A stretch of 64,000 bases of DNA from Candidatus Woesearchaeota archaeon (lineage in GTDB: Archaea > Nanobdellota > Nanobdellia > Woesearchaeales > UBA10216): contig JACPBX010000003.1 in the NCBI GenBank assembly GCA_016180085.1, positions 74,655 through 138,654 on the forward strand, in the 5' to 3' direction. Positions 18,968-38,061 of this stretch are shown here, piece after piece; the first letter of the stretch is position 1, and every line of letters starts with the position of its first letter. The notes beneath the pieces were generated by a model that ran no database searches, was not told where the DNA came from, and worked only from the letters and a program-made list of their open reading frames with translations. The translations under genes and the position numbers were made by a program.

Positions 18968-18991
18968 TTATAGCGCTTATCGCTTACTTCG

Positions 18992-20862: not shown

Positions 20863-21993
20863 TTAGAATGGCCCCGTGAAGCTCGGGTCTGGCACGTCGG
20901 GCTTGGCAGGCAGCTTCTGCCTCTCTGACTCGGCTATGGCTTTCGCCTGCCCTTCCGGCACATTTGCCAGCTCGCACACCTCTTTTATTATGTCGATGTG
21001 CGATGGATAATAATGCTTGCTCAACGCATGGCTCGTTGGTGTCGGGATGTCCGGCAGCGTCACCCTTTTTGGCGCTGCTTTCAGCCTGCCAAACAAGGAT
21101 TTGTTTTCGCTGACCCTCGCTATGATATCGCCTGCAAGCCCGCCTGAGTAGTAGCCTGAGTCGATGACAAGGAGCTTGCCTGTTTTTTCAACGCTCTGCC
21201 TGATTGTTTCGAAGTCCAGAGGCTTTATCGTCCTTAAGTCTATGATTTCAGGGCTTACTTTCCCGGCCAGTGCATTTGCCGCTTTCATAGCCTGAACAGT
21301 CATGTAAGAGCTTGTTACGATTGTCACGTCTTTTCCTTCCCTGAGCACCTTTGCCTTTCCAATGGGCACTGTGTATGGCTTTTCAGGCACATACCCTGTT
21401 ATGTTGTGCAGCCACCTGTGCTCTATGAATATGACTGGGTTGTTGTCCTTTACGCTTGCGATGAGAAGCCCTTTTGCATCATAGGCGTTGCTTGGCATCA
21501 CGACTTTCAGCCCAGGCGCATGTGCCAGAATGGCTTGCAGGTTTTGCGAATGCTGGGCTCCCTGCCCCCAGCCCTGCCCTATTATTGCCCTTATGACCAT
21601 TGGCACGCTCAGCCTGCCTCCAAACATGTAGTGCCATTTCGCTGCATTGTTTACAATCTGGTCCATGGCAAGGAGGATGAAGTCGAGCCTTTGGTGCACC
21701 ATAATCGGCCTTAGGCCTTTCAGTGCTGCCCCTATGCACACCCCTGTGAGGCCGTTTTCCGATACCGGCATGTCAAGCACCCTGTTTTTGCCGTGCTTTT
21801 CCCGGAGCCCTGTTGTTGTGCCAAAGATGTGCTTCGGGTCAGGCACGCCTTCGCCTATTACGAACACAGAGCTGTCCATCTGCATGCACTGGTCTGTTGC
21901 TTCCAGCACTGCCTCTGCGTAGGTTATCTTTCTCTTCCTTTCATCTTTAGCAGCTTCAGCCGTTGTTTCCATTTTTTCCATTTCCATCAGCAT
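20863..21993 (-). CDS. Pyruvate/2-oxoacid dehydrogenase E1 component beta-subunit-like (transketolase Pyr + C-terminal domains)
   Basis: 376 aa; IGEGV...G, AEN(GL)TGVCIGAAL, HSQN...PGLKVV characteristic of E1-beta; no E2/E3 genes nearby. Confidence 0.8.
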   Translation of the reverse strand: MLMEMEKMETTAEAAKDERKRKITYAEAVLEATDQCMQMDSSVFVIGEGVPDPKHIFGTTTGLREKHGKNRVLDMPVSENGLTGVCIGAALKGLRPIMVHQRLDFILLAMDQIVNNAAKWHYMFGGRLSVPMVIRAIIGQGWGQGAQHSQNLQAILAHAPGLKVVMPSNAYDAKGLLIASVKDNNPVIFIEHRWLHNITGYVPEKPYTVPIGKAKVLREGKDVTIVTSSYMTVQAMKAANALAGKVSPEIIDLRTIKPLDFETIRQSVEKTGKLLVIDSGYYSGGLAGDIIARVSENKSLFGRLKAAPKRVTLPDIPTPTSHALSKHYYPSHIDIIKEVCELANVPEGQAKAIAESERQKLPAKPDVPDPSFTGPF

Positions 21994-22994
21994 TAGTCAG
22001 CGTAAAGGTTGTCTGCCAGGGTTTCCTTTGCAGGGAAAGGGCTCTCCTTTGCGAACCTGAATGCCTCGTTCACTTCTTTCTTTACAGTTTCGTCAATTGC
22101 CTCAAGCTCCTTTTCCGTTGAAACCCTTTTGCCGAGCAGGGTTTCCCTGAGTTTTTTGATTGGGTCTTTTTCCTTCCATTCTGCTATTTCCTGTGCTGTC
22201 CTGTAGCCGAGCTTTGAGTCATCGTTTGGGCCGACGTGCTCAAGCCACCTGTATGTTGCAAACTCAAGGAACGCCGGTCCGGCTCCTGACCGCGCATGCT
22301 CAACCGCTTTTTTCGCTGCTGTGTAGACTGCAATGGCGTCGTTGCCATCCGCTTTGAAAACTGCTATGCCCTGTGCTTTTGCGAGCTGCGTTATTTCGCG
22401 CTCAGGCTGCCTTTCCCTTATGTGCGTCTGGCTTGCGTAGAGGTTGTTTTCGCAGGCAAACAGCACAGGCAGCCTGTGCAGTGCTGCGAAGTTCGTTGCC
22501 TCGTGGAACGCCCCCCCCTCAACAGCCGAATCGCCAAAGAAAGCAACCGAAATTGCGTTCTTCTTTTGCATCCTCGCTGCGAGCGCAGCTCCTACAGCAA
22601 CTGGTATCGTCCCTCCAACCAATGGAGTTGAGGCAACAAAATTTGCTGCCAGGTCAATCAGGTGCATTGAGCCTCCCCTGCCTTTTGCGCAGCCGGTTTC
22701 CTTTCCGTATAGTTCTGCAATCATGGCTTTCAGGCTGCCTCCCTTTGCAAGGTAATGGCCATGAGCCCTGTGGTTGGAGAATGCGCTGTCTTCACTCGTC
22801 AGGTTTTGGCACACGCCCGCAGGCACTGCCTCCTGGCCTATGCAGAGGTGCACCGGGCATCTCATTTCCTGCTCTGGGTAAAGCTCGGCTATCCTTTCCT
22901 CTGTTCTCCTTATCAGGAGCATCGAGCTGTAAAGTCCAAGAAGTATGTTATTGTCAGGCAGATTTTCCATTTTTTCATCATCAGCGTTTTCCAT
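21993..22994 (-). CDS. Pyruvate/2-oxoacid dehydrogenase E1 component alpha-subunit-like (TPP-binding)
   Basis: 333 aa; GQEAV, HRAHGH, FFGDSAVEGGAFHEA...CENNLYA (GDG-x25-NN TPP motif); the beta-subunit gene start (21993) overlaps its first base by 1 nt. Confidence 0.8.
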   Translation of the reverse strand: MENADDEKMENLPDNNILLGLYSSMLLIRRTEERIAELYPEQEMRCPVHLCIGQEAVPAGVCQNLTSEDSAFSNHRAHGHYLAKGGSLKAMIAELYGKETGCAKGRGGSMHLIDLAANFVASTPLVGGTIPVAVGAALAARMQKKNAISVAFFGDSAVEGGAFHEATNFAALHRLPVLFACENNLYASQTHIRERQPEREITQLAKAQGIAVFKADGNDAIAVYTAAKKAVEHARSGAGPAFLEFATYRWLEHVGPNDDSKLGYRTAQEIAEWKEKDPIKKLRETLLGKRVSTEKELEAIDETVKKEVNEAFRFAKESPFPAKETLADNLYAD

Positions 22995-23102: not shown

Positions 23103-25406
23103 ATGGGGTTTGTTCCGGTTTTCGTGTTTTTGGCATGCACCTGGGGCCTTGGGTTCTCTGTCCTGAGGCTCGCCAGGGCTGGGGAGCAGGATAGCTTTCT
23201 TGAGCGCAACGTCATGAGGATAGGCATAGGCCTGTCATCCTTTGTCGTGCTTGGAGTGATATTTAACGCTCTTGGAATCCCCCTGGACTACAGGGTTTTC
23301 CTTGTTTTTTCCGGGTTGATGCCCGCCTACGAGCTTCTGGTAAGGAAGGGCTTCAGGAAAACAAAGGCAACGCCATCAGCAAACTCGCAGGAAAAAACAG
23401 GCGGAAAGGCAGGCATGAAGCTGAAGCTATCTGACATCAACGCTGTTGTTGTCCTGGTGATATTTGCCGCAACACTCATCATGTATCTGTCAGGAGCGTT
23501 CAGGTACCCATATCTTGAGGATGACGACCCGTGGGGGCACGCGTCTGCTGTAAAGTACGTGTCTGTGGAGAAGACAGCCAATGACCCGGCTACGCTTGAT
23601 TTCCATTACATGGACCCGTATCCTCCGGGCTATGACATGGTATTGGGCATTCTGAATCAGGTTTCGTCATCAACAGCATGGACACTGAAGTTCTTCAATG
23701 CGCTTTTCATCTCCCTTAGCATCATGTTCTTTTATTTCTTCACAAAGGAGTTCTTTGGCAACAGGAACAAGGCGCTCTTCGCGGCCTTTGTGCTTGCGTC
23801 AGTGCCTGCCTACCTGAGTCATTTCATATGGGCGCCTGCGCTTGCAATGGCTGTTTTTTCCCAGGCAATGTATTCGTTGGAGATGTTAAAGCATGACAGG
23901 AAGTGGTGGGCTGTTGCAGGCGTCTGCTTTGCAGCAATATTGCTCTCGCATCCAACCCATGCAGTCAAGCTGACAGGGCTTGTGCTGATATATGTTGGCG
24001 TGAAGGCTGTTGCCAACCTTACGTTCAGCACAAAATCTCTGCCTTTGCTGCTGCGTCAGCTGCAGCCGAGCCTCGGCAATTTTGCCGCAGTTGCTTTTGG
24101 TGTTTTCCTGTCCTTGTTCTGGTGGGCAGCCAAGTGGAAAGGCTTTTTCGGCGTGGCAAGGGGAAGCTTCAGGGCAGGGAGCGAGGCTGTAACAGGGGCT
24201 GTTGGAAGCTCAGGCAGCATGCTTGCAAAGCTCCTTTCGCTGCCGGCAAGAATCTTCAACGCAGAAAGCGGCACAGCAACAAGGGTCTATCTGCTGAGGG
24301 ATTTCGCGGTTGTCCAGGGCAACAACATGATAAACAATCCCGTGGGGCTGGGCTTTTTTGCCTTCGTGCTGATGGTTGCAGGGATTGTTTCTGCTGCTTC
24401 AAAAATTGTAATGCATTTGCCAAAGAGGAAAGCCGCAATAGCTGCGGCAGCTGCGGCGGTTATAGTCCTGGCTGTGATTATAGCTTCAAACACTTATGAA
24501 TACCAGACAAACCTGTACGAGACCGGGTCTAGGTTTGCACAGTTTCTGCAGTCGCCGCCAAGCTATGCAAGCGTGTTTCTCATGTCGCTGATGTTAAGCT
24601 CATTGGCGGTCGCTTTTGTTCTTTCAATTGCTGCCATAATTATTTTGAGGCGGAAATCCCACAGCCAAGGCGACCAAGGCGACCAGGAGAATCAGCAAAA
24701 CTGGCAAAGCAGCCTTGTTATAGCAGCGATACTGCTGGGTTGGCTGCTTTTTACATTTTTGGGCGTGAACAGCCGGACGTTCAACCTGCCTGTGGGGCTT
24801 TTTGCATTCAGGTTCTGGATGATTTTTGCCATACCTGCTGCAATGCTGGCTGCCGAGGGGCTTTTTTCCATGCTGGGGCTGGTTAAGGCGCTGAAGCTTG
24901 ATGCCGCAACAGCAACAACAGTGAAACTGGCAATAATAGCTGTTGTTGTCGCGGGAGTGCTTTTCACTTCTGCGAAGCAGAAGTATGACACAAACACTAG
25001 CTGCTGGCCATCCGGTGCGTTCTGGAGCGGGGAGTTTGTGCTTGAGCCAGGCTCTAACTGCCCGGTCCAGGCAGAGCTGCTGTCCTACCAGTGGCTGAAG
25101 ACCCTGCCTGCAGGGACAAAGGTGTTTACTTTTTCCAACCCTGACCAGGTGATAGGGTTTGACAAGTACTCGTGCGGGTGGTGTGCGCCGGAATATGGCA
25201 TGCGGCAGAGGTTCTACAATGTCACAGCATCAGAACTAAACAGCTTCATGGCCGAGAACAGTTACGAATACCTTATTCTGGGAGGAATTGAAGCCAGGAA
25301 CTACGGTCTGAACAGGACAGTCCAGCTCATAAACGAGTTTGCTGAGTCAAGGCTCTTTACTGTTGCCTACAACGGCCAGTCAGCGGTGGTGTTCAGGACA
25401 GCATGA
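23103..25406 (+). CDS. Large polytopic membrane protein, GT-C-fold glycosyltransferase candidate
   Basis: 767 aa, more than 12 predicted TM segments; periplasmic-loop acidic motif YLEDDDPWGH; large C-terminal soluble domain; 4-nt overlap with the next GT-C gene. Confidence 0.55.
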   Translation: MGFVPVFVFLACTWGLGFSVLRLARAGEQDSFLERNVMRIGIGLSSFVVLGVIFNALGIPLDYRVFLVFSGLMPAYELLVRKGFRKTKATPSANSQEKTGGKAGMKLKLSDINAVVVLVIFAATLIMYLSGAFRYPYLEDDDPWGHASAVKYVSVEKTANDPATLDFHYMDPYPPGYDMVLGILNQVSSSTAWTLKFFNALFISLSIMFFYFFTKEFFGNRNKALFAAFVLASVPAYLSHFIWAPALAMAVFSQAMYSLEMLKHDRKWWAVAGVCFAAILLSHPTHAVKLTGLVLIYVGVKAVANLTFSTKSLPLLLRQLQPSLGNFAAVAFGVFLSLFWWAAKWKGFFGVARGSFRAGSEAVTGAVGSSGSMLAKLLSLPARIFNAESGTATRVYLLRDFAVVQGNNMINNPVGLGFFAFVLMVAGIVSAASKIVMHLPKRKAAIAAAAAAVIVLAVIIASNTYEYQTNLYETGSRFAQFLQSPPSYASVFLMSLMLSSLAVAFVLSIAAIIILRRKSHSQGDQGDQENQQNWQSSLVIAAILLGWLLFTFLGVNSRTFNLPVGLFAFRFWMIFAIPAAMLAAEGLFSMLGLVKALKLDAATATTVKLAIIAVVVAGVLFTSAKQKYDTNTSCWPSGAFWSGEFVLEPGSNCPVQAELLSYQWLKTLPAGTKVFTFSNPDQVIGFDKYSCGWCAPEYGMRQRFYNVTASELNSFMAENSYEYLILGGIEARNYGLNRTVQLINEFAESRLFTVAYNGQSAVVFRTA

Positions 25407-26950
25407 ATAAGCTGTATAAGTTATCAAGATTGTTTGGAAACGACAGCTATGCAAAGCTGGCCCTGGCAGTTATAATAATAGGGGCTATAGTGAGGTTCTC
25501 TCTTGCAGCGCTTAGCCATCCTGCCGGTGACAGCTGCTGGCACCTTTCGGTTGCGAGGTTTATCGCCGAAAACGGCAGGATACCGCTTCTTGAGCCGTTC
25601 GGCATAACAGACAGGCAGGTGTTTACAGCCCCTCCCCTGTTTCACCTGATTGCTGCAGCTGTTTACAAGGTTTTCAGCCTGGTAAGCATACCTGCTGCCG
25701 AGCTAGCATACAAGCTCGTCTCTCCGCTATTCGGCGCATTAACGCTGCCTGTGGTTTTCCTGCTTGGCAGGAAGCTGTACAATCCAAAAATTGCGTTCTG
25801 GGCCACGTTCTTCCTGGCGTTCCTGCCGCTGCACATGAACTCCAGCGTTGTGTCGTTTGTTGATTCGCTCACCACTTTGCTTGCTGCTCTGGCTGTTTAT
25901 TTCCTTGTTTCAAGAAGGGTGCTGGCCGCAGCCGTTTTCCTGGGCCTCGGCCTGGCTGCAAAGCAGACCATGATAGCCCTGGTGCCTGTGTTTTTCCTGG
26001 CCCTGGCAGTTTTTTACAGGAAAAACCTGAAAGCCCTCATAGCAAAGTCATTGGCCTCAGCGCTCATAGCCGCAGTGATAGGGCTGCCGTGGCTTATCAG
26101 GAATTACGTGCTGCTCAAAAATCCTGTCTGGCCTTTCCTTTACAAGCTGATAGGAGGCACAGTAGCTCCGGAAGTGGCGGAAGGGTTTTCAGCAGCCTAC
26201 CTGTTCTCAGCTGGCCATGCCCTGAGGTTTTTCCTTGAGCTTATGGGAGCTCCTCTTGGAAGCCTCGGTGCTGTGGCATTTTTGAAGCTGCCGTTTGCTG
26301 GCGCAGTCAGTGTAATGCTTGCAGTATGGCTTGCGCTGGTGATTATTTTTTCCGTGCCTGTTATTGCCGGAGTCCTTGCCAGGGGTGTAAAGCACCGCTG
26401 GCTGCTTTATGCATGGATGGCGGCATTCCTGCTGGTAACCATGGTTTACATAATCAACGTAGGCATGGGGTCTGCAAGGTTTTTCCTTGCATCAGCGCCG
26501 GCACTCGCGATTATATGGGCAGTCGGGATTGACAGGATACTCGGCAAGGCAGGCAGCATTCAAGGCATTGAAGGGATGCGCAGGCTTAGTGTAACAGCAC
26601 TTGTAATTATGGTGGTTGTAGGCAGTGTTGTTGCATTTGCTGCTGTTGAGGCTGCAAAAACAATTACCGGTGCCAATGAGTGGGCAAAGTACGAAGAGGA
26701 CTTCAGCTGGATAAGGCAGAACACGCCCCAAAAAGCGCTCATAGGATACAGGGGGCAGTGCATGAGCTACAACGTGCACCGCTTCTCGAACTTCAAGCTC
26801 GACAAGGTTGACTACCTATGGGTAAACCAGGGCTTCAGGCTTGAGCCTATAAGCATTTTGGAGCCGCAACTGCTTGGGCAGGTTCAGGGTAATTTCACCA
26901 AGGTCTACGATAACAGCGCAACAGGGACCGTGATTTACAAGAGAAAATAG
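25403..26950 (+). CDS. GT-C-fold membrane glycosyltransferase (GT39/GT83 ArnT/PMT-like)
   Basis: 515 aa; first-loop motif HPAGDSCWHLSVARFIAENGRIP matches the D-x-x-x-H...AR...G...P signature of ArnT/PMT_2-family enzymes; multiple TMs. Confidence 0.65.
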   Translation: MNKLYKLSRLFGNDSYAKLALAVIIIGAIVRFSLAALSHPAGDSCWHLSVARFIAENGRIPLLEPFGITDRQVFTAPPLFHLIAAAVYKVFSLVSIPAAELAYKLVSPLFGALTLPVVFLLGRKLYNPKIAFWATFFLAFLPLHMNSSVVSFVDSLTTLLAALAVYFLVSRRVLAAAVFLGLGLAAKQTMIALVPVFFLALAVFYRKNLKALIAKSLASALIAAVIGLPWLIRNYVLLKNPVWPFLYKLIGGTVAPEVAEGFSAAYLFSAGHALRFFLELMGAPLGSLGAVAFLKLPFAGAVSVMLAVWLALVIIFSVPVIAGVLARGVKHRWLLYAWMAAFLLVTMVYIINVGMGSARFFLASAPALAIIWAVGIDRILGKAGSIQGIEGMRRLSVTALVIMVVVGSVVAFAAVEAAKTITGANEWAKYEEDFSWIRQNTPQKALIGYRGQCMSYNVHRFSNFKLDKVDYLWVNQGFRLEPISILEPQLLGQVQGNFTKVYDNSATGTVIYKRK

Positions 26951-26952: not shown

Positions 26953-27909
26953 CTAATCTTTCCCGCCTTTCACGCTTCTCGCTATCCTGTCAAGCCATTC
27001 AATGATTTCGTAGCCGCTGTCAATGCCTGTGAGAGGCTTATTCCCGTTTCTGATGCAGCTGATGAAGTGCTCAACCTCGTTCCTCAAGGGCTCTTTGGCT
27101 GTGACTGGAGGCAAATGTTGGGATGGAAAGAGCCTTAGCTTCTCTTTCTCTTCAACATCGTCAAAGACAGCTACGGCCTTGTCACCGACTACGGTCATGA
27201 GCCGCGTCTTTTTGGCTCCAAACCACGTTGTTATCAGCGTTGCTGAAAGGCCGCTCTCAAACCTTACAGTGGCTGCTGTGAAATCGTCAAAGCCGCTTTT
27301 TGCGTCAGATTTCGCACCAGAAACAGCTATGCTTTTCCCGCCAGCCTCCACAATTTTTCCCGGGCTGAGCAGGAATTGGATTAGGGAAAGCTGGTGGGGT
27401 GCAGCATCCCAGAAGCTGCCAATGTCTTTCCTTACAGGGAAGCACATGTGCTCGCCAACAACGTATCTGGCCTTCCCCAGGCCTCCATCGCCTATCAGCT
27501 TTTTCAGGAAGCGGACATAGTCGTTGTAGACGTACTGGTGCCCAACCATAAAAGTTGAGCTGCCCTTCCTGACAATTGCCCTGAGCTGTTTTGCTTCCGC
27601 AAGGCTTGTGGCCATGGGCTTCTCGACAAGGACGTGCTTGCCATGCTCCAGCGCCTCAGCCACAAAAGCGAGGTGGGTTGATGGGGGGGTTGCGATGACA
27701 ACGCAGTCAACATCCCTGTTCCTGAGTACAAGCGAGGCATTTGTGGTGGCAACTGCGGATTTGGGAATCGCATCCTTAATCCCGGCAAGCGACTCATTAG
27801 TCCTTGTGGCAACAGCTGAAAGAACAGCGTCAGGAATGCTTTGGAGAAGTTTGACATAGTTCCTGCCAAAATAGCCAACGCCAATCAAGCCAAAGCGCAG
27901 AGGTTTCAT
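26953..27909 (-). CDS. Gfo/Idh/MocA-family NAD(P)-dependent sugar oxidoreductase
   Basis: 318 aa; N-terminal FGLIGVGYFG Rossmann, EKP motif (VLVEKPMA), typical length. Confidence 0.85.
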   Translation of the reverse strand: MKPLRFGLIGVGYFGRNYVKLLQSIPDAVLSAVATRTNESLAGIKDAIPKSAVATTNASLVLRNRDVDCVVIATPPSTHLAFVAEALEHGKHVLVEKPMATSLAEAKQLRAIVRKGSSTFMVGHQYVYNDYVRFLKKLIGDGGLGKARYVVGEHMCFPVRKDIGSFWDAAPHQLSLIQFLLSPGKIVEAGGKSIAVSGAKSDAKSGFDDFTAATVRFESGLSATLITTWFGAKKTRLMTVVGDKAVAVFDDVEEKEKLRLFPSQHLPPVTAKEPLRNEVEHFISCIRNGNKPLTGIDSGYEIIEWLDRIARSVKGGKD

Positions 27910-27915: not shown

Positions 27916-30219
27916 TCAGCCGGCGTTATCCCGCAGCCAGGCGGCTGTCCTCAGCAGCCCTGCTTTGAGGCTGACCTTGGGTGAATAGCCAACCTCATTC
28001 TTAATCTTGGAAAGGTCAGGGCATCTTCTCCTTGGCTCGTCCTGCGGATAGTTTGCAGGGTAGCTTATCAGCTTTACGTGGACTTTGTTGCTGAAGACCT
28101 CTCCGGCTATTGTTTCTGCAAGGGCAAGCATGTTGATTTCCTCAGCGTCATTGCCAACATTGTAGACCTGGCCAGCCCTCCCGAGGAGCAGGACCTTGAA
28201 AAAGCCTGTGACTGCATCTGTTATGTAGCAGAATGCCCTTGTCTGGTTGCCCTTGTCATAAACAGTCAGCTCCCTGCCCTGAAGTCCCAGGCTCAGCATT
28301 GTTGGTATTACCCTGTAATCCGTGCTTTTCATGCCGGGGCCGTAAACGTTAAACGGCCTGACAATCCTTGCCGGGGTTTTGTGGACGCTGTAATGGGCCA
28401 TGCACATTGTTTCCCCCATGCGCTTTGATTCGTCATAGCAGGACCTCTCGCCGATTGAGGAAACATTGCCTTTGTACGTTTCCGGAGTTGGGATAAAGTT
28501 CGGGTCAGGGTCTCCGTAAATCTCGCTTGAGCTGAAGTACAGGAGGGCATTCACTTTTTTCTGCCCGGCCAGCTCAAGCGCGTTTTTAACCCCAAATATG
28601 GTTCCTTCTATTGTTTCTATGGGGTAGCGCTTGTAATATATGGGTGAGGCGACTCCTGCAGCACTGATTATGTAGTCTATGGGCTCCTCAATGGCAGCAG
28701 GAAATCTGACATCGTGCTTTACAAACTTTATGTGCTTGCTGTTGATTTCCTTCAGCATGTTGTTCCTGGAGTTCTGGCCTGTGATGTGGATGTCCAGGGA
28801 GATGACTTTGCACGGCTTCGCAAGAAACTTTCTGTTGAGGAGGTCAATTGTGGCAACAATGCAGCTGCCTATAAAGCCAGAGCCCCCTGTAATCAGGACA
28901 GTGCTTCCTTCGAGCATGCCAAGCATCCTGGCATCTTCCTTTATTGCCCCTGCAATTGTATCCAGGTCCTGCTCGACAATGCCATTGATAACCTGCGGCT
29001 CCGGAACAGGAATGATAAAGTTGCTGAAATCAGCGCACTTCTTCATTATCGGCTCGGCAAAGTTCCAGGCAAGTATGAGGATGTAGTCCGGCCTGTGCTT
29101 GTAAAGCTCGTCGAACGCAACAACAGGAATGTGCGTGCCCGGGGTGTGCATGCCCTGTTTCCACGGGCTGTCGTCAACAATGTAGTCAAGCACTTCGGGG
29201 CCAATCTGGAAATAATTGAGAAGCGTGTTGCCTTTTGCAGGTGCCCCATAGCCTACAATCTTCTTGCTCCTGGACTTCAGCTCTTTCAGCAGCTCTTTCA
29301 GTTTTACCTTGTTCTGCTCAATCTTCTTCGCGAACTCAGCGTACGTTGCCGCTTTTGAAAGGTGCCTGGCATCTTCCATTTCCGTGAACTTTCCCACAGA
29401 TTCCTCAATCTTGTATGGGCCGCCGGATTTCTGGGCGAACACCCTGAGAGAGCCGCCATGGGTGTCTGTTTCAGAAACATCAAACACCTCCATGCCAAGG
29501 CGGTGCAGCAATTTTGAGGCTGTCTTTGCAGTGAAATACGAGAGGTGCTCATGATAGATTAGGTCAAACAGGTTTTTTTCCAGCAGCTCGTAAAGGTAGT
29601 AGACCTCAATGATAAAAACGCCGTCGTCAGCAAGAAGCTCCTTTACGCCGCTGACAAAGCCATCAAGGTCATCAACGTGGGAGAAGACGCTCGTTGCTGT
29701 TATGGCTTTTGCCTTGCCATACTTTCTGGCAATGTCCTTGGCAATTATGGGTGTGAAAAAAACAGGCAATGTCTCGATGCCGCTTTTGGTTGCCATTGCA
29801 GCTATCTTCTCTGCCGGGTCAATGCCCAGAACCTTCATTCCCTTCTCTTTGAACGGGCGAAGCAATACCCCGTCGTTGCTGCCAACATCAACTACAAGGG
29901 AACTTGGCTTCAGCTTGAAGCGCTTAATAACCGTGTCTGCGAGGTCCCTGAAATGCTGCACAAAGACCGGGGAGGTTGAGGAAACGTAAACATAATCCCT
30001 GAAGAGGAGCTCTGGGGAAACAACGCTGGTAAGCTGGACAAAGCCGCAGTCGCTGCAGAAGGAAAGCCCAAGGGGGAAAAACTGCTCACTATCAGTCGGG
30101 CTCTTGATGAAGGCGTTGGCAGGCGGGGTGGAGCCCAAAGACAGCACATTAGCCAGCTTCCTGCCTGTGCATACCCTGCAGAATGTTTTTTCCTGTACAG
30201 ATTCAGCCATAAAAAACAC
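27916..30219 (-). CDS. Fusion protein: N-terminal TylCIII-type sugar C-methyltransferase + C-terminal UDP-glucuronate decarboxylase (UXS/ArnA-Cterm)-like extended SDR
   Basis: 767 aa; residues 1-400: CRVC...CSDCGF Zn-ribbon + DVGSNDG SAM motif + C-MT C-terminal domain; residues 410-767: LITGGSGFIGS, SSSEIYGDP, CYDESKRMGE (UXS YxxxK region). Confidence 0.75.
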   Translation of the reverse strand: MFFMAESVQEKTFCRVCTGRKLANVLSLGSTPPANAFIKSPTDSEQFFPLGLSFCSDCGFVQLTSVVSPELLFRDYVYVSSTSPVFVQHFRDLADTVIKRFKLKPSSLVVDVGSNDGVLLRPFKEKGMKVLGIDPAEKIAAMATKSGIETLPVFFTPIIAKDIARKYGKAKAITATSVFSHVDDLDGFVSGVKELLADDGVFIIEVYYLYELLEKNLFDLIYHEHLSYFTAKTASKLLHRLGMEVFDVSETDTHGGSLRVFAQKSGGPYKIEESVGKFTEMEDARHLSKAATYAEFAKKIEQNKVKLKELLKELKSRSKKIVGYGAPAKGNTLLNYFQIGPEVLDYIVDDSPWKQGMHTPGTHIPVVAFDELYKHRPDYILILAWNFAEPIMKKCADFSNFIIPVPEPQVINGIVEQDLDTIAGAIKEDARMLGMLEGSTVLITGGSGFIGSCIVATIDLLNRKFLAKPCKVISLDIHITGQNSRNNMLKEINSKHIKFVKHDVRFPAAIEEPIDYIISAAGVASPIYYKRYPIETIEGTIFGVKNALELAGQKKVNALLYFSSSEIYGDPDPNFIPTPETYKGNVSSIGERSCYDESKRMGETMCMAHYSVHKTPARIVRPFNVYGPGMKSTDYRVIPTMLSLGLQGRELTVYDKGNQTRAFCYITDAVTGFFKVLLLGRAGQVYNVGNDAEEINMLALAETIAGEVFSNKVHVKLISYPANYPQDEPRRRCPDLSKIKNEVGYSPKVSLKAGLLRTAAWLRDNAG

Positions 30220-30256: not shown

Positions 30257-30649
30257 CTATATCAGCCTTACCCTGACAGTGTCTTCCTCATAAGCCCGCT
30301 GCGACCTTGACTCGGTGGCGAGAGCCAGAAAAACAGAGTCCTCAACGAACCTCATGGCATGCACAGTCATGGGATGGCTTAGGACCATGTCGCCGGCCTC
30401 AATCACCACTGACTCCTTCTTGCCCTTGAGATTTCCATTGCTGTCAACCGGCTGCTCGGTGTACTCCATTTTGCCTGACAGGAGGTATGCGTAATGCCAG
30501 TCCTTCTTGTGGTAGTGGTTTGCGCGGACAGAGCCTTTCCTGCAGGTTATGAGCAGCACGCTTCTTATCACGGTTTTGCCGTCATCCAGTATTTTGGAAA
30601 TTTCCCCCCTTTCGTCAGCAAACTCAGGCCTGATTCTGAACACTTCCAA
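30257..30649 (-). CDS. Cupin-fold sugar-nucleotide isomerase/epimerase (FdtA/WxcM-C-terminal-like)
   Basis: 130 aa; RANHYHKK resembles the RGxHAHK motif of 3,4-ketoisomerases; the track start is TTG (30649); GTG at 30643 is an alternative. Confidence 0.5.
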   Translation of the reverse strand: MEVFRIRPEFADERGEISKILDDGKTVIRSVLLITCRKGSVRANHYHKKDWHYAYLLSGKMEYTEQPVDSNGNLKGKKESVVIEAGDMVLSHPMTVHAMRFVEDSVFLALATESRSQRAYEEDTVRVRLI

Positions 30650-30855: not shown

Positions 30856-31572
30856 CTAATCGAAGAATCTATATTTCAGCAGGTACCAGATGCTGATTAA
30901 GCCGTCCTTCATGCCGATTTTCTTTCCTGCGCCATACCCTCGGTGGCGGAAGTGGATGGGGACTTCAACAAACACCTTTCCCTTCTTTTTCAGCTTAATC
31001 ATCATTTCAAGGTCAAAAACAAAGCGGTTGGCCTTCATGCTGACTTCTTTTAAGTCGCTGAGCCGCATGAGCTTGTAGCACGGGTAAATGTCGGTCAGGT
31101 TATGGCTGAAGAGGAAATTCCAAAGCCACTTTATGGCCATGTTGCCGACGTAGTTCATGAAAAGGACGTTCTTTCTTTTGCCGAAAAGGTGCTGCTTCCT
31201 GCCCAGGAAGCGGGAGCCTATGACGACATCGGCAAGGCCTGATTCCATCAGTGGCAGCATATACCTGAAATCAGCAGGCTCGTATTCCAAATCGGCATCG
31301 TGGAAGACAATGTAATCGCCAGTGGCATGCTTTATGCCTTCTTTCAGGGCTGCGCCCTTGCCCGTGTTTCTTTGCAGAAAAACAGCCTTGACCCCATGAA
31401 TTTTCCTTATCAGGTCAGAAGTCCCGTCACTGGAGCCATCGTCAACGACAATTATTTCCCTGCCGTAATCGCCTATGTCAACCCCTTTGGTGTGCTCGAC
31501 TGCCTCAACAATGGTGTTCCTTTCATTGTATGCGGGAATGACTATGGACAATTTTTTTTGCGATTCTGCCAT
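30856..31572 (-). CDS. GT2 glycosyltransferase (Dpm1-like)
   Basis: 238 aa; LSIVIPAYNE, VVDDGSSDGT, HDADLEY motifs. Confidence 0.8.
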   Translation of the reverse strand: MAESQKKLSIVIPAYNERNTIVEAVEHTKGVDIGDYGREIIVVDDGSSDGTSDLIRKIHGVKAVFLQRNTGKGAALKEGIKHATGDYIVFHDADLEYEPADFRYMLPLMESGLADVVIGSRFLGRKQHLFGKRKNVLFMNYVGNMAIKWLWNFLFSHNLTDIYPCYKLMRLSDLKEVSMKANRFVFDLEMMIKLKKKGKVFVEVPIHFRHRGYGAGKKIGMKDGLISIWYLLKYRFFD

Positions 31573-31779
31573 TGGAAGCCAGCCGCAGACCGAGATTTAT
31601 AAAGTTTACTTCAGCCTCAACATGTTCAAAGCATTAAGTTTATAAAAACTTCAGGCTGCACGTGCAGGAATGGGAAAAGTCAAACTGGCAGCTGCCCTGC
31701 TGTGGATGATAGCAATATTTCTGGCATACTACTGGCTGAAAACATCTGAAATAATAGCCTTTTATCTGGGGGGATAAGC

Positions 31780-33693
31780 GTGGCTCTGCTGGTTATGGCC
31801 CTAAGCCTTCTGATGCTTGCTGTCTTTCTCACGGTAGCTTTTGCCTCTGGCCGGAAGCTGCTTGCATTGTTCCGGGCCGATTTCAATTTTAGCAAGGCCG
31901 AGGAATTCTTAATCAGCGTTGCCCTGGGGGCAGGGCTCCTGATGAACGCCACAATCCTGCTCGGAGTTTTTAAGGTTCTGTACAAGGAAGCCTACATCTT
32001 AATAGCTCTGGCAGTTTTGGTGCTGTGCTTCAGGGAGGTAAGGCGCCTCTGGCAGCTGGCAATGTCTTTTGCCATTCATTTGAGGCAGGTGCTGAAGCCA
32101 ATGAAGCCAAGCGTTGCAGGGTTCCTGACATTGTCCTTCCTGTTCTTTGCGCTGATAAACTTCATACCTGCACTGACTCCTGCTTACGAGTTTGACTCGA
32201 TGGGTTACCACATGGCGTTTGCAAAGGTGTATGCCGGCAGCCACAGCCTTGTTTACCAGCCAAGCCAGTTCTACAGCACCATGCCGCAGGGCATGACCAT
32301 GCTTTATACGATATCAGAGCTTTTCTCAGCGCCAAACCTTTCCCCTCTCATAGCTTACTCGTTCGGCATCCTTGCAAGCCTTGCCATATATGCGCTTGTC
32401 AGGAAAAACCATTCGGAAACAGCGGCAACAGCAGGGGCGCTGCTGTTTTTCACAATGCCTGCCGTGATTGAAAGGCTGCCGCAAACAATGGTTGACATAA
32501 GCGTTGCATACTTCTTCCTGGCTGCAGTAATTGTCCTTTTCAAGTATGCCAGCGAAACCGATAACCGGAAGAGAATTCTGCTGGTGCTGCTGTGCGGCGC
32601 GCTGGTGGGGTTAGCAGCATCCATAAAGCTTACAGGCTTTTTTGTGGCTGCTGCCTTTGTTATTGGAATGGTGCTGTCACGACTCCTGTACGGGAAGGAA
32701 GTCGGATTAAAAGAAAAATCAATCCGAACAGCTGTTGAAATTGCCGTATTCCTTGCTGTTGTGCTGCTGCTTGCAACCCCCTGGCTTGTAAGAAGCTATG
32801 CTTACACAGGCAACCCGGTTTACCCCCTGGCTTACGGCGTCTTCGGAGGGAAGTACCTTTTGCCCTCGCTTGGCACAGCGTATGAAACATATCACAGCAA
32901 TGTCGGCCTTGATAAAAGCATTGCCAGCGTACTTCTTGTGCTTTGGAACATGACATTCAGAAGCGCGGCATTCGGCACAGTAATAGGCATCACGCCGTTT
33001 TTGATGATGCTCCTGCCTCTGGCAGCCCTGTTTTTCAAAGACATTGTGGACTTTAAGAAGTGGCTTGTGCTGTTTGCTATGGGTGCAGCCGTAATCATGA
33101 TAACCTTTTTTGTTCACCCTGTGCTTAGGTACATGTTTGCCGGGCTTGCGCTTCTGAGCGCAGCGGCCGCATTAACGATGGAACCTATGCTGAGGCACAG
33201 GCTGCTAAAGGCAGCAATAGTCCTTATGCTTGCCTTCTCGCTTGCGTTCAGCGCAGCCATATGGTATGGCATAAACGCAAAAAGCGTTTTATACATCGTT
33301 TCTGGGGAGAGCGAAAGCCAGTACTACGGGAAGCTTACCGACCACAACGCCTATGGCGCAGCAGCATGGATAGCTTCCAACACACAGCCGGATGCAGTGG
33401 TGCTCCTGTTCAACGAGCCAAGAGGATACTTCCTTGACAGGGCGTATGTGGTCAGCTCGCCCTTCCAAAACTATATAGACTATTGGAGCATGAATGGCAG
33501 CGAAGGGCTGCTGGCAAGGCTGGAGGAGCTCAGGATAAGCCACATACTAATAAACGATGCGCTGCCTGACACGTACGGCAAGGCAGCCAACGGCACTCAC
33601 GCCATTGAGCTCATGCGCAATCTCACAGAGGATGCTGGCAAGTCAGTGCAGGTTTACAATAAAAGCAATGTCAGGGTGTACGAGCTGAAATAA
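31780..33693 (+). CDS. Large polytopic membrane protein, GT-C-like candidate
   Basis: 637 aa; GTG start at 31780 preceded by GGGGGGAT (alternative ATG at 31795); more than 12 TMs; loop motif YEFDSMGYHMAFAKVYAG. Confidence 0.5.
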   Translation: MALLVMALSLLMLAVFLTVAFASGRKLLALFRADFNFSKAEEFLISVALGAGLLMNATILLGVFKVLYKEAYILIALAVLVLCFREVRRLWQLAMSFAIHLRQVLKPMKPSVAGFLTLSFLFFALINFIPALTPAYEFDSMGYHMAFAKVYAGSHSLVYQPSQFYSTMPQGMTMLYTISELFSAPNLSPLIAYSFGILASLAIYALVRKNHSETAATAGALLFFTMPAVIERLPQTMVDISVAYFFLAAVIVLFKYASETDNRKRILLVLLCGALVGLAASIKLTGFFVAAAFVIGMVLSRLLYGKEVGLKEKSIRTAVEIAVFLAVVLLLATPWLVRSYAYTGNPVYPLAYGVFGGKYLLPSLGTAYETYHSNVGLDKSIASVLLVLWNMTFRSAAFGTVIGITPFLMMLLPLAALFFKDIVDFKKWLVLFAMGAAVIMITFFVHPVLRYMFAGLALLSAAAALTMEPMLRHRLLKAAIVLMLAFSLAFSAAIWYGINAKSVLYIVSGESESQYYGKLTDHNAYGAAAWIASNTQPDAVVLLFNEPRGYFLDRAYVVSSPFQNYIDYWSMNGSEGLLARLEELRISHILINDALPDTYGKAANGTHAIELMRNLTEDAGKSVQVYNKSNVRVYELK

Positions 33694-34419: not shown

Positions 34420-35436
34420 CTACTTCAGCCTTAATTCATGCATTCTTTTTATGTTGTGGTACATTGGGTTGTTCAGCGGGTCCTTGAGCAGACCTTTCCT
34501 GAATGCATCCGTGAGGGTTTCGATGGCATCCTCAACAGTGTATCGGGCAGTGAAGCCGAGAGCCTTCAGTATCTTGTCTGAGTTTATGTGGTAGGACCTG
34601 TTGTCGTTGGTTGGCACAACTTCAAGCTCTACCTCTTTGCCGAGCGCCTTCTCAACAACCTTCTTTGCAAGCATCGCTATCTCTGTTACCTTCATGTTCT
34701 GGTAGCCCACGTTAAAGGTCTGGTGCCTCAGTTTTTCCCATGGAGCTGCAAGCAAAAGCTCGTATGCCCTTACCATGTCTTTGATGTTTATGTTGGGCCT
34801 TAGCTGGCTTCCGCCAAATATCTTTATCTTTCTGTTAACAAGGGCGTTTATCGTAAGTATGTTGACCACAAGGTCCAGCCTGAGCCTTGGCGCATACCCG
34901 CACACTGTTGCCGGCCTTATCGTTACCCACTCAATGTCTTCCCCTTCCTCTTTCAGCACCTTCTCGCAGTCTGCCTTGTATTTTGAGTAGTCGGTCAGGG
35001 GCTCCAGCATGGCTTCTTCAACCACGTTCTTCTCTGATTTCAGTCCGTAAACGCTGGAAGTGCTTGCATAAATCAGCCTTTTGGCTCTGTTAACCCTTGC
35101 TGCCTCAACTACGTTATAGAATGCGTCGAAGTTGATTGACTTTCCAAGTTCAGGATTGAGCTCGAAGCTTGGGTCGTTGGAGATGCACGCGAGGTGGATT
35201 ATTGCATCACAATCTTTTGCTGCCGCCACTATTTTTTCTTTTTCCCTTATGTCGCCTTTTATCTCGGTCAGCTTTTTGTCTTTAATGCCCTTAAACACAT
35301 CGCCGTAGATGTAGAGGTCGTAAACAACAACCTCATAGCCTTTTGCCAGGAGGCTTGGCACGAGCGCTGAGCCGACGTAGCCGGCACCGCCAGTGATGAA
35401 TACTTTTTTTATGCCAGCATGGTTAATGTTTACCAC
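34420..35436 (-). CDS. NAD-dependent epimerase/dehydratase (extended SDR)
   Basis: Track start 35535 overlaps the upstream gene by 113 nt; GTG at 35436 preceded by GGAAAGGAGAAAG (SD-like) chosen as start; KVFITGGAGYVGSAL Rossmann; YSKYK (YxxxK). Confidence 0.65.
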   Translation of the reverse strand: MVNINHAGIKKVFITGGAGYVGSALVPSLLAKGYEVVVYDLYIYGDVFKGIKDKKLTEIKGDIREKEKIVAAAKDCDAIIHLACISNDPSFELNPELGKSINFDAFYNVVEAARVNRAKRLIYASTSSVYGLKSEKNVVEEAMLEPLTDYSKYKADCEKVLKEEGEDIEWVTIRPATVCGYAPRLRLDLVVNILTINALVNRKIKIFGGSQLRPNINIKDMVRAYELLLAAPWEKLRHQTFNVGYQNMKVTEIAMLAKKVVEKALGKEVELEVVPTNDNRSYHINSDKILKALGFTARYTVEDAIETLTDAFRKGLLKDPLNNPMYHNIKRMHELRLK

Positions 35437-36487
35437 CTTTCTCCTTTCCCAGGTACTCGAACCATTTTTCGGTTGCCTGCCCGATTGATTTTTCGTCCCA
35501 AAGCGGAGCAGCTTTCCAGTAATCAATGTTGTCAATCATAATCTTCACCCCTTCTTCAAATGAAACCTCAGGCTTCCACTTGAGCAGCTTTGTTGCCTTT
35601 GCTATGTCCGCGTGGGTGCTTTCAGGCTCACCCGGCCGTTTTGGAATGTGCATAGTCTTCCCGTCTTTTCCGCCTATGAGCTTTGCCAGGTAGTTCACTG
35701 ACTGGGGTTTGCCTGTGCCTATGTTGATTATCTCCCCAACCACATCGGATTCTGCAGCAATCAGCGTGGCTTTTGCAACGTCAGTTACGAATGTGAAGTC
35801 CCTTGTCTGGGTTCCGTCTCCGACTATTGTCAGGGGCTTGCCGTGAAGCTTTTGCGCGAGGAACACTTTGAACACTGCCCCGTATGTGTCGTTTGTCCTC
35901 GCCCTTGTCCCATACACGTTAAAGTACCTCAATGATATTACGGGGAGGCCGTAGAGCCTGTGCCAGAACATCGTGCAAAGCTCTCCAACGTACTTTGTGA
36001 ACGCGTAAGGGTATTGCGGCCTTATCTCAGCAGTCTCGGGCGTAGGGTACTGGTCCGGTATGCCGTAGCATGACGACGACGCGGCATATATGAATTTTCT
36101 GGCGCCGTATTTTCTTGAAGCTTCCAGCGCCCGTATTGTGCCTGTGACGTTTGCCTCGTGGTACTTCAGGGGCTGTTCAATGGAAGGCACTATGTCTGCG
36201 AGCGCTGCCATGTGGAAGACGTAGGTTGCGTCCTTGAATGTTGAGTCGTTAAACTCCTTTGCGAGGTCTATCCTGTGGAACTCGTAGTCCGGATTGCCTT
36301 TGAACAGGTCGATGTTGTCCTGCTGGCCGTTGGACATGTCGTCTATGGCAATGACGTGGAAGCCCTTGCTGAGCAGCAGCTCCACCATGTGTGAGCCGAT
36401 AAAGCCTGCGCCTCCTGTGACAACAGCTCTCTTTTTGTCCTTCTTCATAGGATTAGGATAACTGCGGGCTTTCTTAAAATTTTCCAT
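35423..36487 (-). CDS. NAD-dependent epimerase/dehydratase (UDP-sugar 4-epimerase/dehydratase-like)
   Basis: 354 aa; AVVTGGAGFIGSHMV; YAFTKYVGE (YxxxK). Confidence 0.8.
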   Translation of the reverse strand: MENFKKARSYPNPMKKDKKRAVVTGGAGFIGSHMVELLLSKGFHVIAIDDMSNGQQDNIDLFKGNPDYEFHRIDLAKEFNDSTFKDATYVFHMAALADIVPSIEQPLKYHEANVTGTIRALEASRKYGARKFIYAASSSCYGIPDQYPTPETAEIRPQYPYAFTKYVGELCTMFWHRLYGLPVISLRYFNVYGTRARTNDTYGAVFKVFLAQKLHGKPLTIVGDGTQTRDFTFVTDVAKATLIAAESDVVGEIINIGTGKPQSVNYLAKLIGGKDGKTMHIPKRPGEPESTHADIAKATKLLKWKPEVSFEEGVKIMIDNIDYWKAAPLWDEKSIGQATEKWFEYLGKEKGGKH

Positions 36488-37092
36488 TACTGTCTGCCGT
36501 GCTGGGAAGATTCAGAATGTTCCTGTATCTTCTTCTGGAGGTAGTAAGTTACCAGGTGGTGCAGCATGTCGTGGCAGTCTTCAACCCTGCCGTAGTTGTT
36601 TGATCTGACGTGGACATGGTGGTCAACTATGTTTTTCAGTTTCCCGCCGTCAAAGCCGAGGAAGGCTATTGTTTTTGCCTTGAATTTTTTTGCCAGCTCG
36701 ACTGCCTTAATGACGTTTGGCGAGTTGCCGCTGCCGGTCAGCGCAATAACAACATCCCCTTCATTCACGTAGTGGTTGAGCTGCTGCGAGAAAACGTCGT
36801 CGTAGGAAAGGTCGTTTGCGAATGCCGTCATAGTTGCAACGTTGTCTGTCAGGGACATGACCCTGAAGCGCTTTTCCAGGTGGTCGTAGACCCTCTGGAG
36901 CGTGCCTTTTGCTATGTCGCAGGCGAAATGCGATGCTGTTGCCGCGCTTCCTCCATTTCCGAATATGAATATCTGCTTGTCGTTCTTCCACGCATCGAAA
37001 AGCACGTCAACTACCTTCGTCACGTCTTCGGGCTTTATTGTGTCTATTTCTTTTTTCAGCTGTTCGATGTATGCTTTGACGAATTCAACCAT
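36487..37092 (-). CDS. gmhA: Sedoheptulose-7-phosphate isomerase (GmhA, SIS domain)
   Basis: 201 aa; FIFGNGGSAATASHFACD, LTGSGNSPNV SIS motifs typical of GmhA. Confidence 0.8.
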   Translation of the reverse strand: MVEFVKAYIEQLKKEIDTIKPEDVTKVVDVLFDAWKNDKQIFIFGNGGSAATASHFACDIAKGTLQRVYDHLEKRFRVMSLTDNVATMTAFANDLSYDDVFSQQLNHYVNEGDVVIALTGSGNSPNVIKAVELAKKFKAKTIAFLGFDGGKLKNIVDHHVHVRSNNYGRVEDCHDMLHHLVTYYLQKKIQEHSESSQHGRQ

Positions 37093-38015: not shown

Positions 38016-38061
38016 GCGACAGAAACATTTAAAAACCTTCTGCCAGCAGCTCCTTTCCTGT

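What the first reader, a model, noticed from the sequence alone, without database searches (positions are those of the whole stretch)
27916..30219. Single polypeptide fusing a TylCIII-type sugar C-methyltransferase to a UDP-glucuronate-decarboxylase-like SDR
Residues 1-400 have the Zn-ribbon/SAM/C-terminal architecture of NDP-hexose C-methyltransferases, which act on 3- or 4-keto sugar intermediates. Residues 410-767 are an extended SDR with UXS/ArnA-decarboxylase-like motifs (GGSGFIGS, SSSEIYGDP, CYDESKR); such enzymes generate a transient UDP-4-keto-pentose. Fusing a keto-sugar generator to a C-methyltransferase would channel the keto intermediate directly into C-methylation, which points to a branched-chain (C-methyl) pentose or hexose. 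I do not recall this fusion being described.
Basis: partly seen in the sequence, partly recalled or inferred. Interest (0 to 1): 0.7.

Follow-up and report, generated by a model that had tools for sequence, protein, structure and literature searches.

The report
Fused sugar C-methyltransferase and UDP-glucuronate decarboxylase
A DPANN archaeon encodes one protein that joins a sugar C-methyltransferase to a UDP-glucuronate-decarboxylase-like enzyme; the same two genes sit side by side in at least 66 species across many phyla, within an uncharacterised gene cassette that probably builds a methyl-branched pentose for the cell surface.

Summary
Window 27916-30210 (-) is one uninterrupted gene (764 aa from the ATG). 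Its N-terminal half is a TylC3/TcaB9/MtmC-type NDP-sugar C-methyltransferase. Its C-terminal half matches human UDP-xylose synthase best and keeps the decarboxylase residues. It is not an artefact: more than 100 diverged homologues are fused.

The fusion is a lineage-specific form of something wider. In about 64 of 80 species-level genomes the two parts are separate, abutting genes (MT then SDR). The same pair is also fused in the reverse order in another clade.

The pair sits in a conserved cassette: an ArnC-like GT2, a CapF/FdtA-like cupin, MT, SDR and a Gfo/Idh/MocA oxidoreductase, often beside a GT-C membrane transferase.

The best reading (inferred, not shown) is this. UDP-GlcA is decarboxylated to UDP-4-keto-pentose and C-methylated with SAM. 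The product is then tailored and reduced, loaded on polyprenyl phosphate and transferred outside the cell, as in the Arn pathway. The methylated position, the product and any channelling are unknown.

I found no literature on this. GenBank names the protein only "NAD-dependent epimerase/dehydratase". I rate it a new variant of a known kind, of moderate to high interest.

The parts
27916..30210 (-). Fusion gene (764 aa from ATG 30210; alternative GTG at 30219 gives 767 aa); identical to GenBank MBI2140915.1
29002..30180 (-). NDP-sugar C-methyltransferase half (aa 14-406): Cys4 zinc ribbon (C14, C17, C55, C58), SAM-binding domain and C-terminal Methyltransf_14 domain; Y76, H181, Y222, E224 and H225 align with the TcaB9 active-site residues
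   Evidence: TM 0.94-0.95 to MtmC/TcaB9/KijD1
28903..29001 (-). Junction (aa 407-439): the MT tail 'FIIPVPEPQV' runs straight into a roughly 30-aa helical N-terminal extension of the SDR. This extension is also present in the split SDR genes. It is modelled as ordered helices (pLDDT 87-95), with no flexible linker
27919..28902 (-). UXS-like extended SDR half (aa 440-767): GGSGFIGS; S564/E566 (hUXS1 T118/E120), Y595/K599 (Y147/K151), N624 (N176), R732 (R277)
30257..30649 (-). 130-aa cupin directly upstream, related to nucleotide-sugar 4-keto epimerases and 3,4-ketoisomerases (CapF cupin, FdtA/QdtA, RmlC); adjacent to the MT-SDR pair in 48 of 60 loci
26953..27909 (-). Gfo/Idh/MocA oxidoreductase starting 6 nt after the fusion stop; adjacent in 37 of 55 loci; orthologous to PDB 3c1a (no assigned function)
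30856..31572 (-). 238-aa GT2 whose best solved relatives are ArnC and dolichol-P-mannose synthase (polyprenyl-phosphate sugar transferases); within 3 kb of the pair in 20 of 43 loci
31780..33693 (+). PMT_2 (ArnT-type GT-C) membrane glycosyltransferase, divergent from the GT2
   Evidence: (orthologue in L003)
25403..26950 (+). Second PMT_2/GT87-like GT-C, convergent with the Gfo gene; orthologues lie beside the cassette in L066 and L075

Best explanation
The gene encodes a bifunctional nucleotide-sugar enzyme that is the fused form of a widespread MT+SDR gene pair. Proposed pathway: (1) the UXS-like SDR half oxidises UDP-glucuronate at C4 with NAD+ and decarboxylates it to UDP-4-keto-pentose; (2) the TylC3/TcaB9-type half removes a proton from a carbon next to the ketone and transfers a methyl group from SAM, at C3 by analogy with all solved relatives; (3) the neighbouring cupin (an epimerase or 3,4-ketoisomerase type) and the Gfo/Idh/MocA oxidoreductase set the stereochemistry and reduce the ketone, giving a UDP-C-methyl-pentose; (4) the ArnC-like GT2 loads the sugar on a polyprenyl phosphate, and a PMT_2/ArnT-like GT-C transfers it to a surface acceptor outside the membrane. 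Shown here: the domain identities, retention of the catalytic residues, gene linkage, repeated fusion and cassette conservation. Inferred: the substrate, release of the keto intermediate, the methylated position, the order of the cupin and MT steps, the roles of the cupin and Gfo, and the lipid-linked delivery. In the minimal contexts that lack cupin and Gfo (the reversed fusions), the SDR may itself re-reduce the methylated ketone with its retained NADH.
For: Domains and residues. The SDR is closest to UXS1 (3e-51) and next to a decarboxylase (8vr2). It has S-x-E rather than the T-D-E of RmlB dehydratases, and it keeps the equivalents of hUXS1 E120, N176 and R277. Linkage: MT and SDR are adjacent in 66 species-level loci from Woesearchaeota, CPR, Alphaproteobacteria, Myxococcota, Mycobacterium, Elusimicrobia, Chloroflexota, Nitrospinaceae and Omnitrophota. 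The same UXS-like subfamily is fused as MT-SDR and as SDR-MT. Cupin-MT, MT-cupin and MT-GT2 fusions also exist, as does an MT fused to an RmlB-type dehydratase (STDEVYG), a parallel case of a keto-sugar generator joined to a C-MT. The cupin is related to CapF, FdtA and RmlC. The GT2 is closest to ArnC and DPMS, and GT-C genes flank the cassette in archaeal, CPR and alphaproteobacterial loci. A UDP-glucose-6-dehydrogenase-like gene abuts the cassette in L021 and lies nearby in L025 and L007. There is precedent for a UXS-family enzyme releasing UDP-4-keto-xylose for C-branching or amination: EvdS6, ArnA, CalS9 and RsU4kpxs (PMC10338323). The AF2 model is rigid (pTM 0.81) with an ordered junction.
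Against: There is no biochemical evidence. No UGDH gene is present in the 64-kb window, and only 3 of 80 loci have one nearby. UXS1-type enzymes normally keep the keto intermediate and release UDP-xylose, and sequence cannot tell whether this one releases it. A 3,4-ketoisomerase cannot act after C3-methylation, so the order of steps and the methylated carbon (C3 versus C2/C4) are ambiguous. No natural C-methyl pentose of this origin was found in the literature. The loci were chosen by similarity to both halves, so the adjacency frequency is biased upward. The protein falls far below the NCBIfam cut-offs for ArnA and for the Ralstonia UDP-4-keto-pentose synthase.
Confidence: 0.6

Rival explanations
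1. Two independent activities are fused only for co-expression. The SDR half is an ordinary UDP-xylose synthase, the MT half methylates a different 4-keto sugar nucleotide made by another dehydratase, and both sugars end up in the same glycan.
For: The SDR is closest to UXS1, which normally releases UDP-xylose. The window holds several other extended SDRs that could be 4,6-dehydratases. All solved relatives of the MT use dTDP-4-keto-deoxyhexoses.
Against: The pair stays adjacent across about ten phyla and was fused in both orders. In the minimal contexts (P0113, L083) the SDR is the only candidate keto-sugar generator beside the MT. The cassette SDR has a conserved N-terminal helical extension absent from UXS1 that sits at the junction.
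Confidence: 0.15
2. The SDR half is not the generator but the finisher. It acts as a C4-ketoreductase or epimerase on the methylated keto-sugar, and the substrate comes from an unlinked dehydratase.
For: C-MT pathways usually end with an SDR 4-ketoreductase. MtmC, the closest solved MT, is described from memory as bifunctional with ketoreductase activity. Other MT-SDR fusions in the library carry SDRs that are not UXS-like.
Against: The decarboxylase-type residues (E566, N624, R732) are invariant. The best relatives are decarboxylases, 20 or more orders of magnitude ahead of reductases and epimerases. A separate oxidoreductase (Gfo) is already present in the cassette.
Confidence: 0.12
3. The fusion is an assembly or frameshift artefact that joins two neighbouring genes.
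For: Most orthologues, including one with an MT 78% identical (L083), are split with a stop codon at the boundary.
Against: More than 100 fused cluster representatives at 42-81% identity come from NCBI, ENA, JGI and Logan assemblies. The identical ORF occurs in two assemblies. The split relative differs by a clean 36-nt spacer containing AAGGAGG and a GTG start, a multiple of three. The junction is conserved and modelled as ordered.
Confidence: 0.01

Closest known systems
TylC3 / TcaB9 / MtmC / KijD1 NDP-hexose C3-methyltransferases
   Same: Same three-domain architecture, Cys4 zinc site and Y76/H181/Y222/E224/H225 active-site set; 34-38% identity; TM 0.94-0.95.
   Different: The known enzymes are stand-alone and act on dTDP-4-keto-(di)deoxyhexoses made by RmlB-type dehydratases, in actinomycete antibiotic pathways. 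This one is fused or adjacent to a UXS-like decarboxylase in surface-glycan clusters of archaea, CPR and Proteobacteria.
UDP-xylose synthase (human UXS1 and bacterial UXS)
   Same: Best-scoring relative (3e-51, about 35-40% identity, TM 0.88). The equivalents of E120, Y147, K151, N176 and R277 are retained.
   Different: The triad Thr is an invariant Ser here. There is an extra conserved helical N-terminal extension of about 30 aa. The enzyme is always partnered with a C-MT. Whether it releases the 4-keto intermediate is unknown.
ArnA and the Arn (L-Ara4N) pathway
   Same: A bifunctional fusion containing a UDP-GlcA decarboxylase whose 4-keto-pentose is tailored, then passed to an ArnC-type GT2 and an ArnT-type GT-C.
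   Different: ArnA's partner domain is a formyltransferase, and the tailoring is transamination plus formylation, not C-methylation. The cassette has no ArnB-like aminotransferase. The ArnA SDR is only distantly related (1e-9; NCBIfam 50 bits against a cut-off of 777).
EvdS6 / eurekanate branch of everninomicin (PMC10338323)
   Same: A UXS-family enzyme shown to release UDP-4-keto-xylose, proposed as the substrate for C-branching of a pentose.
   Different: Branching there is proposed to be a TPP-dependent two-carbon addition, not SAM methylation. EvdS6 is only about 22% identical and is not fused.
Uncharacterised MT-RmlB-type fusion (P0250) and cupin-MT / MT-cupin / MT-GT2 fusions
   Same: The same C-MT family is fused to a keto-sugar generator or to other cassette members.
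   Different: P0250 carries a 4,6-dehydratase signature (STDEVYG), implying a hexose substrate. None of these proteins is characterised.

Membership tests
NDP-sugar C-methyltransferase (TylC3/TcaB9 family) | Zn-ribbon + class I SAM MT + Methyltransf_14 C-terminal domain | tested here: met
   All three Pfam models score above their gathering cut-offs; Foldseek TM 0.94-0.95.
NDP-sugar C-methyltransferase (TylC3/TcaB9 family) | Four zinc-binding cysteines | tested here: met
   C14, C17, C55 and C58 are invariant in 17 and in 49 fused homologues.
NDP-sugar C-methyltransferase (TylC3/TcaB9 family) | Active-site Tyr76, His181, Tyr222, Glu224, His225 (TcaB9 numbering) | tested here: met
   Aligned residue for residue. 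The residues are named in PDB mutant titles. Their catalytic roles come from my memory of the Holden-lab papers, which are not in the library.
NDP-sugar C-methyltransferase (TylC3/TcaB9 family) | SAM-dependent C-methylation of a 4-keto sugar nucleotide | not testable with these tools
   Needs an enzyme assay.
UDP-glucuronate decarboxylase (UXS/ArnA clade of extended SDRs) | GxxGxxG motif, S/T-Y-K triad and extended SDR fold | tested here: met
   GGSGFIGS; S564, Y595 and K599, with Ser replacing the usual Thr.
UDP-glucuronate decarboxylase (UXS/ArnA clade of extended SDRs) | Decarboxylase-associated Glu (hUXS1 E120), Asn176 and the conserved Arg (hUXS1 R277 / ArnA R619); no dehydratase Asp-Glu pair | tested here: met
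   E566, N624 and R732 align and are invariant; the motif is SSSE, not TDE.
UDP-glucuronate decarboxylase (UXS/ArnA clade of extended SDRs) | Closest to decarboxylases rather than epimerases or dehydratases | tested here: met
   UXS1 3e-51 and 8vr2 decarboxylase 9e-31, against RmlB-type 1e-25 or weaker and GalE 5e-13 (NCBIfam).
UDP-glucuronate decarboxylase (UXS/ArnA clade of extended SDRs) | [quoted passage not shown] | tested here: not met
   PRK11908 scores 66.5 bits against a cut-off of 294; ArnA scores 50.3 against 777. It is therefore not an orthologue of either and forms a distinct UXS-like subfamily.
UDP-glucuronate decarboxylase (UXS/ArnA clade of extended SDRs) | Oxidative decarboxylation of UDP-GlcA | not testable with these tools
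   There is indirect support only: UGDH-like genes lie next to the cassette in L021, L025 and L007.
Arn-type lipid-linked pentose modification system | Decarboxylase + ArnC-like GT2 + ArnT-like GT-C in one cluster | tested here: met
Arn-type lipid-linked pentose modification system | ArnB aminotransferase and a formyltransferase domain | tested here: not met
   Neither is present in the cassette. The DegT-family genes in the window are more than 20 kb away. The system works like Arn but is not a member of that family.

The most novel reading that the evidence does not exclude
A previously unrecognised monosaccharide, a SAM-derived C-methyl-branched pentose made from UDP-glucuronate, is displayed on the surfaces of DPANN archaea, CPR bacteria, magnetotactic and other Alphaproteobacteria, myxobacteria and some mycobacteria. 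It would be delivered by an Arn-like polyprenyl-phosphate route. The MT-SDR fusion, with its rigid and ordered junction, would hand the labile UDP-4-keto-pentose directly from one active site to the other. This would be the first C-methylation of a UDP-pentose.
Probability: 0.4. Interest if true: 0.7.

Novelty: new variant of a known kind. Interest (0 to 1): 0.55.

Why it matters
If correct, this defines a new nucleotide-sugar pathway and a new branched sugar. It would be present in many uncultured lineages whose cell surfaces are essentially unknown, and also in cultured, tractable bacteria such as the Magnetospirillum group, Sorangium and a Mycobacterium isolate. It would extend TylC3-type C-methylation from actinomycete antibiotic deoxysugars to primary surface glycans and to UDP-pentoses. 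It would also assign a function to an orphan structural-genomics structure (3c1a) and correct the generic "epimerase/dehydratase" annotation carried by those homologues that have a source name.

Tried and rejected
1. Frameshift or assembly artefact: rejected.
2. Stop-codon recoding or readthrough to explain the many same-frame split pairs: rejected, because the stop codons are mixed (TGA 32, TAA 23, TAG 9), the relative frames are spread 25/23/16, and start codons and an RBS are present.
3. SDR as a plain 4-epimerase or 4,6-dehydratase: rejected on scores and motifs.
4. Predicting keto release versus reduction from the EvdS6 mutagenesis residues: the paper itself says structure does not explain product choice. 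The invariant Thr-to-Ser change is noted but cannot be interpreted.
5. UGDH in the window: none found.
7. Literature searches for the fusion, the cassette, C-methyl pentoses, 8VR2/Pcryo_0617 and TcaB9: nothing relevant apart from the EvdS6 paper.
8. AFDB fold search: the library was unavailable.
9. A common channel between the active sites: not assessable, because the tool returns no coordinates or PAE.
10. tRNA scan of the window: none found.
Full report
**Observation**

Window 27916-30219 (-) is a single uninterrupted ORF of 767 aa from a GTG. The identical GenBank protein, MBI2140915.1 from a Candidatus Woesearchaeota MAG, is 764 aa, so the ATG at 30210 is the likely start. The neighbouring cupin is 100% identical to HYU16_00680 of the same MAG. 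The window therefore comes from a DPANN archaeon.

Pfam gives Methyltransf_13, Methyltransf_23 and Methyltransf_14 over aa 14-406, and Epimerase/GDP_Man_Dehyd over aa 441-755. The N-terminal half matches the solved C3-methyltransferases MtmC (1e-90), TcaB9 (2e-71) and KijD1 (4e-69). The C-terminal half matches human UDP-xylose synthase at 3e-51. Next comes the Psychrobacter oxidoreductase/decarboxylase 8vr2 (9e-31), then RmlB-type dehydratases (1e-25 or weaker), then a PDB UDP-glucose 4-epimerase (1e-13) and ArnA (1e-9); the NCBIfam GalE model scores 5e-13.

**Catalytic equipment**

In the MT half, four cysteines (C14, C17, C55, C58) are invariant. Y76, H181, Y222, E224 and H225 align residue for residue with the TcaB9 positions that were mutated in PDB entries 4e2w to 4e31. 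The catalytic roles of those residues come from my memory of the Holden-lab work, because no TcaB9 paper is in the library.

In the SDR half:
- GGSGFIGS is the NAD-binding motif.
- S564 and E566 align with hUXS1 T118 and E120.
- Y595 and K599 align with Y147 and K151.
- N624 aligns with N176, and R732 with R277 (ArnA R619).

All of these are invariant in 49 fused homologues. The motif is SSSE, not the T-D-E of RmlB dehydratases. [quoted passage not shown] It is therefore a distinct UXS-like subfamily and not an orthologue of either enzyme.

**Artefact or real fusion?**

The fusion is real. More than 100 cluster representatives of 757-795 aa, at 42-81% identity and from NCBI, ENA, JGI and Logan assemblies, have the same architecture.

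A scan of species-representative genomes changed the picture, however. In about 64 of 80 loci the MT and the SDR are separate genes. They abut or overlap by 4 nt. Their stop codons are mixed (TGA 32, TAA 23, TAG 9) and their relative frames are spread 25/23/16, so they are true gene pairs and not recoding events.

A relative with an MT 78% identical (L083) is split. It differs from the window by a clean 36-nt spacer that carries AAGGAGG and a GTG start.

An NJ tree of the MT domains places MT-SDR fusions in at least two groups, each with split forms as near neighbours. A separate clade has the same UXS-like subfamily fused in the reverse order, SDR-MT. Fusion has therefore happened at least twice and probably three times. 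The NJ tree has no support values, so the count is tentative.

**The real unit is a cassette**

On the window's minus strand the gene order is:

| Gene | Coordinates |
|---|---|
| GT2 | 31572-30856 |
| Cupin | 30649-30257 |
| MT-SDR fusion | 30210-27916 |
| Gfo/Idh/MocA | 27909-26953 |

PMT_2-type GT-C genes flank this block.

Among 66 loci with an adjacent MT and SDR:
- the cupin is adjacent in 48 of 60;
- the Gfo gene is adjacent in 37 of 55;
- both are adjacent in 23 of 43;
- the window-type GT2 lies within 3 kb in 20 of 43.

Taxa with the cassette include Woesearchaeota, many CPR lineages, Rhodospirillaceae and the Magnetospirillum group, Elusimicrobia, Chloroflexota, Nitrospinaceae and Omnitrophota. 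Sorangium and Mycobacterium sp. E796 carry the MT-SDR pair with a partial cassette or none. These loci were selected for similarity to both halves, so the adjacency frequencies are upper estimates.

Several alphaproteobacterial loci show the order large membrane protein, GT2, cupin, MT, SDR, Gfo. The membrane protein scores as PMT_2 in L070 and L019, and as DUF6044 with a weak YfhO-like match in L048.

The 50%-identity representative library also contains cupin-MT, MT-cupin, MT-GT2 and GT2-MT fusions. It holds an SDR-cupin-MT protein whose SDR is not UXS-like. It also holds an MT fused to an RmlB-type dehydratase (STDEVYG), a parallel case of a keto-sugar generator joined to a C-MT.

**The partner genes**

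- **Gfo protein.** It is a generic family member by sequence. Its best PDB hit, 3c1a, is 61-78% identical to the gene at the cassette position in L048, L053 and L050, so an orthologue already has a solved structure without an assigned function.
- **GT2.** It is closest to ArnC (7e-16) and Pyrococcus dolichol-P-mannose synthase (1e-14).

**Mechanism**

The best-supported reading is as follows.
1. UDP-GlcA is oxidised and decarboxylated by the SDR half to UDP-4-keto-pentose.
2. The MT half methylates a carbon next to the ketone, at C3 by analogy with every solved relative.
3. The cupin and the Gfo protein epimerise or isomerise the sugar and reduce the ketone.
4. The ArnC-like GT2 makes a polyprenyl-phosphate sugar.
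5. A GT-C transfers it to a surface acceptor.

The logic parallels the Arn pathway, but with C-methylation in place of amination and formylation.

Support for UDP-GlcA as the precursor is indirect. The SDR has the UXS signature. UDP-glucose-dehydrogenase-like genes lie directly upstream of the cupin in L021 and near the cassette in L025 and L007. The window itself has no UGDH gene.

There is precedent for UXS-family enzymes releasing UDP-4-keto-xylose to downstream tailoring enzymes: ArnA, CalS9, AtmS9, RsU4kpxs and EvdS6. The last is proposed to feed a C-branched pentose (PMC10338323). The same paper states that active-site structure does not explain product choice. Release of the intermediate here is therefore an inference.

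The order of the cupin and MT steps is unresolved. If the cupin is a 3,4-ketoisomerase acting first, methylation would fall on C2 or C4, and the Gfo protein would be a C3-ketoreductase like KijD10. The reversed fusion P0113 has neither cupin nor Gfo nearby. This suggests that the SDR-MT pair is the functional core, and that the SDR may itself re-reduce the methylated ketone in such systems.

**Structure**

The AF2 model of the fusion has mean pLDDT 88.3 and pTM 0.81. The junction (aa 401-440 of the 764-aa form) is modelled at pLDDT 87-95 as two helices. These helices are the N-terminal extension that split SDRs also carry and that UXS1 lacks. This is consistent with a rigid two-domain enzyme, and with pre-existing association of the split proteins. 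No coordinates or PAE were available, so the shared-channel idea could not be tested. No solved structure spans both halves (best TM normalised to the query is 0.52).

**Novelty**

I found no paper on this fusion, this cassette, or a C-methyl pentose of this origin. The library omits many subscription-journal papers, so absence is not proof. The sequences are public but are named only "NAD-dependent epimerase/dehydratase family protein" or "UDP-glucuronate decarboxylase".

Both enzyme families and the pathway logic are known. The combination and the predicted product are not. I therefore rate this a new variant of a known kind, with interest 0.55. The main value lies in a widely distributed and testable orphan pathway that also occurs in cultured bacteria.

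Noticed in passing
window 13937-17918 (+): A second, divergent C-MT-like gene (415 aa, 24% identical to the fusion's MT half, with motif FHQH in place of YHEH) is followed by a classical SDR and a 632-aa ALS/YerE-like TPP enzyme. This may be a second branched-sugar route that adds a two-carbon branch.
   Followed up: partly
window 20863-22994 (-): A pyruvate-dehydrogenase E1 alpha/beta-like pair lies inside the glycan island, next to a GT2 and a cytidylyltransferase-HAD fusion. The EvdS6 paper proposes that such a heterodimer (EvdU5/EvdS3) adds the branch to UDP-4-keto-xylose.
   Followed up: no
window 17924-20140 and 36487-37092: A PfkB kinase, a cytidylyltransferase+HAD fusion and a SIS (GmhA-like) isomerase look like parts of an NDP-heptose pathway. 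Three further extended SDRs lie at 34420-36487 and 37942-39051.
   Followed up: no
window 42262-44379, 46317-49122, 30856-33693: There are repeated pairs of a small GT2 of about 235-255 aa and a GT-C membrane protein (PMT_2 or DUF2079). This suggests several lipid-linked monosaccharide donors for glycosylation outside the cell. Nearly every ORF scanned across the 64 kb (to about 58 kb) is a glycan gene, and there are no tRNA genes.
   Followed up: partly
L048 12308-13054, L053 12305-13057, L050 12308-13060: PDB 3c1a, a structural-genomics 'putative oxidoreductase', is 61-78% identical to the Gfo/Idh/MocA gene at the cassette position. It is therefore an orthologue with a solved structure and no assigned function.
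   Followed up: yes
P0250, P0244, P0262, P0336, P0343, P0320, P0309 (representative library): The same C-MT family occurs in other fusions: with an RmlB-type dehydratase, with cupins on either side, with GT2 domains, and in an SDR-cupin-MT triple fusion.
   Followed up: partly
window 53829-55640, 56299-58044, 37137-38015, 58095-60500: Three large ORFs have no Pfam hit (603, 581 and 292 aa), and one of 801 aa was not scanned. GC content drops to 0.43-0.46 at 58-64 kb and at 1-2 kb, against about 0.50 elsewhere.
   Followed up: no
L070 2444-4210, L022 3294-4997: Heparinase II/III-like genes lie upstream of the GT-C-GT2-cassette block in two alphaproteobacterial loci.
   Followed up: no
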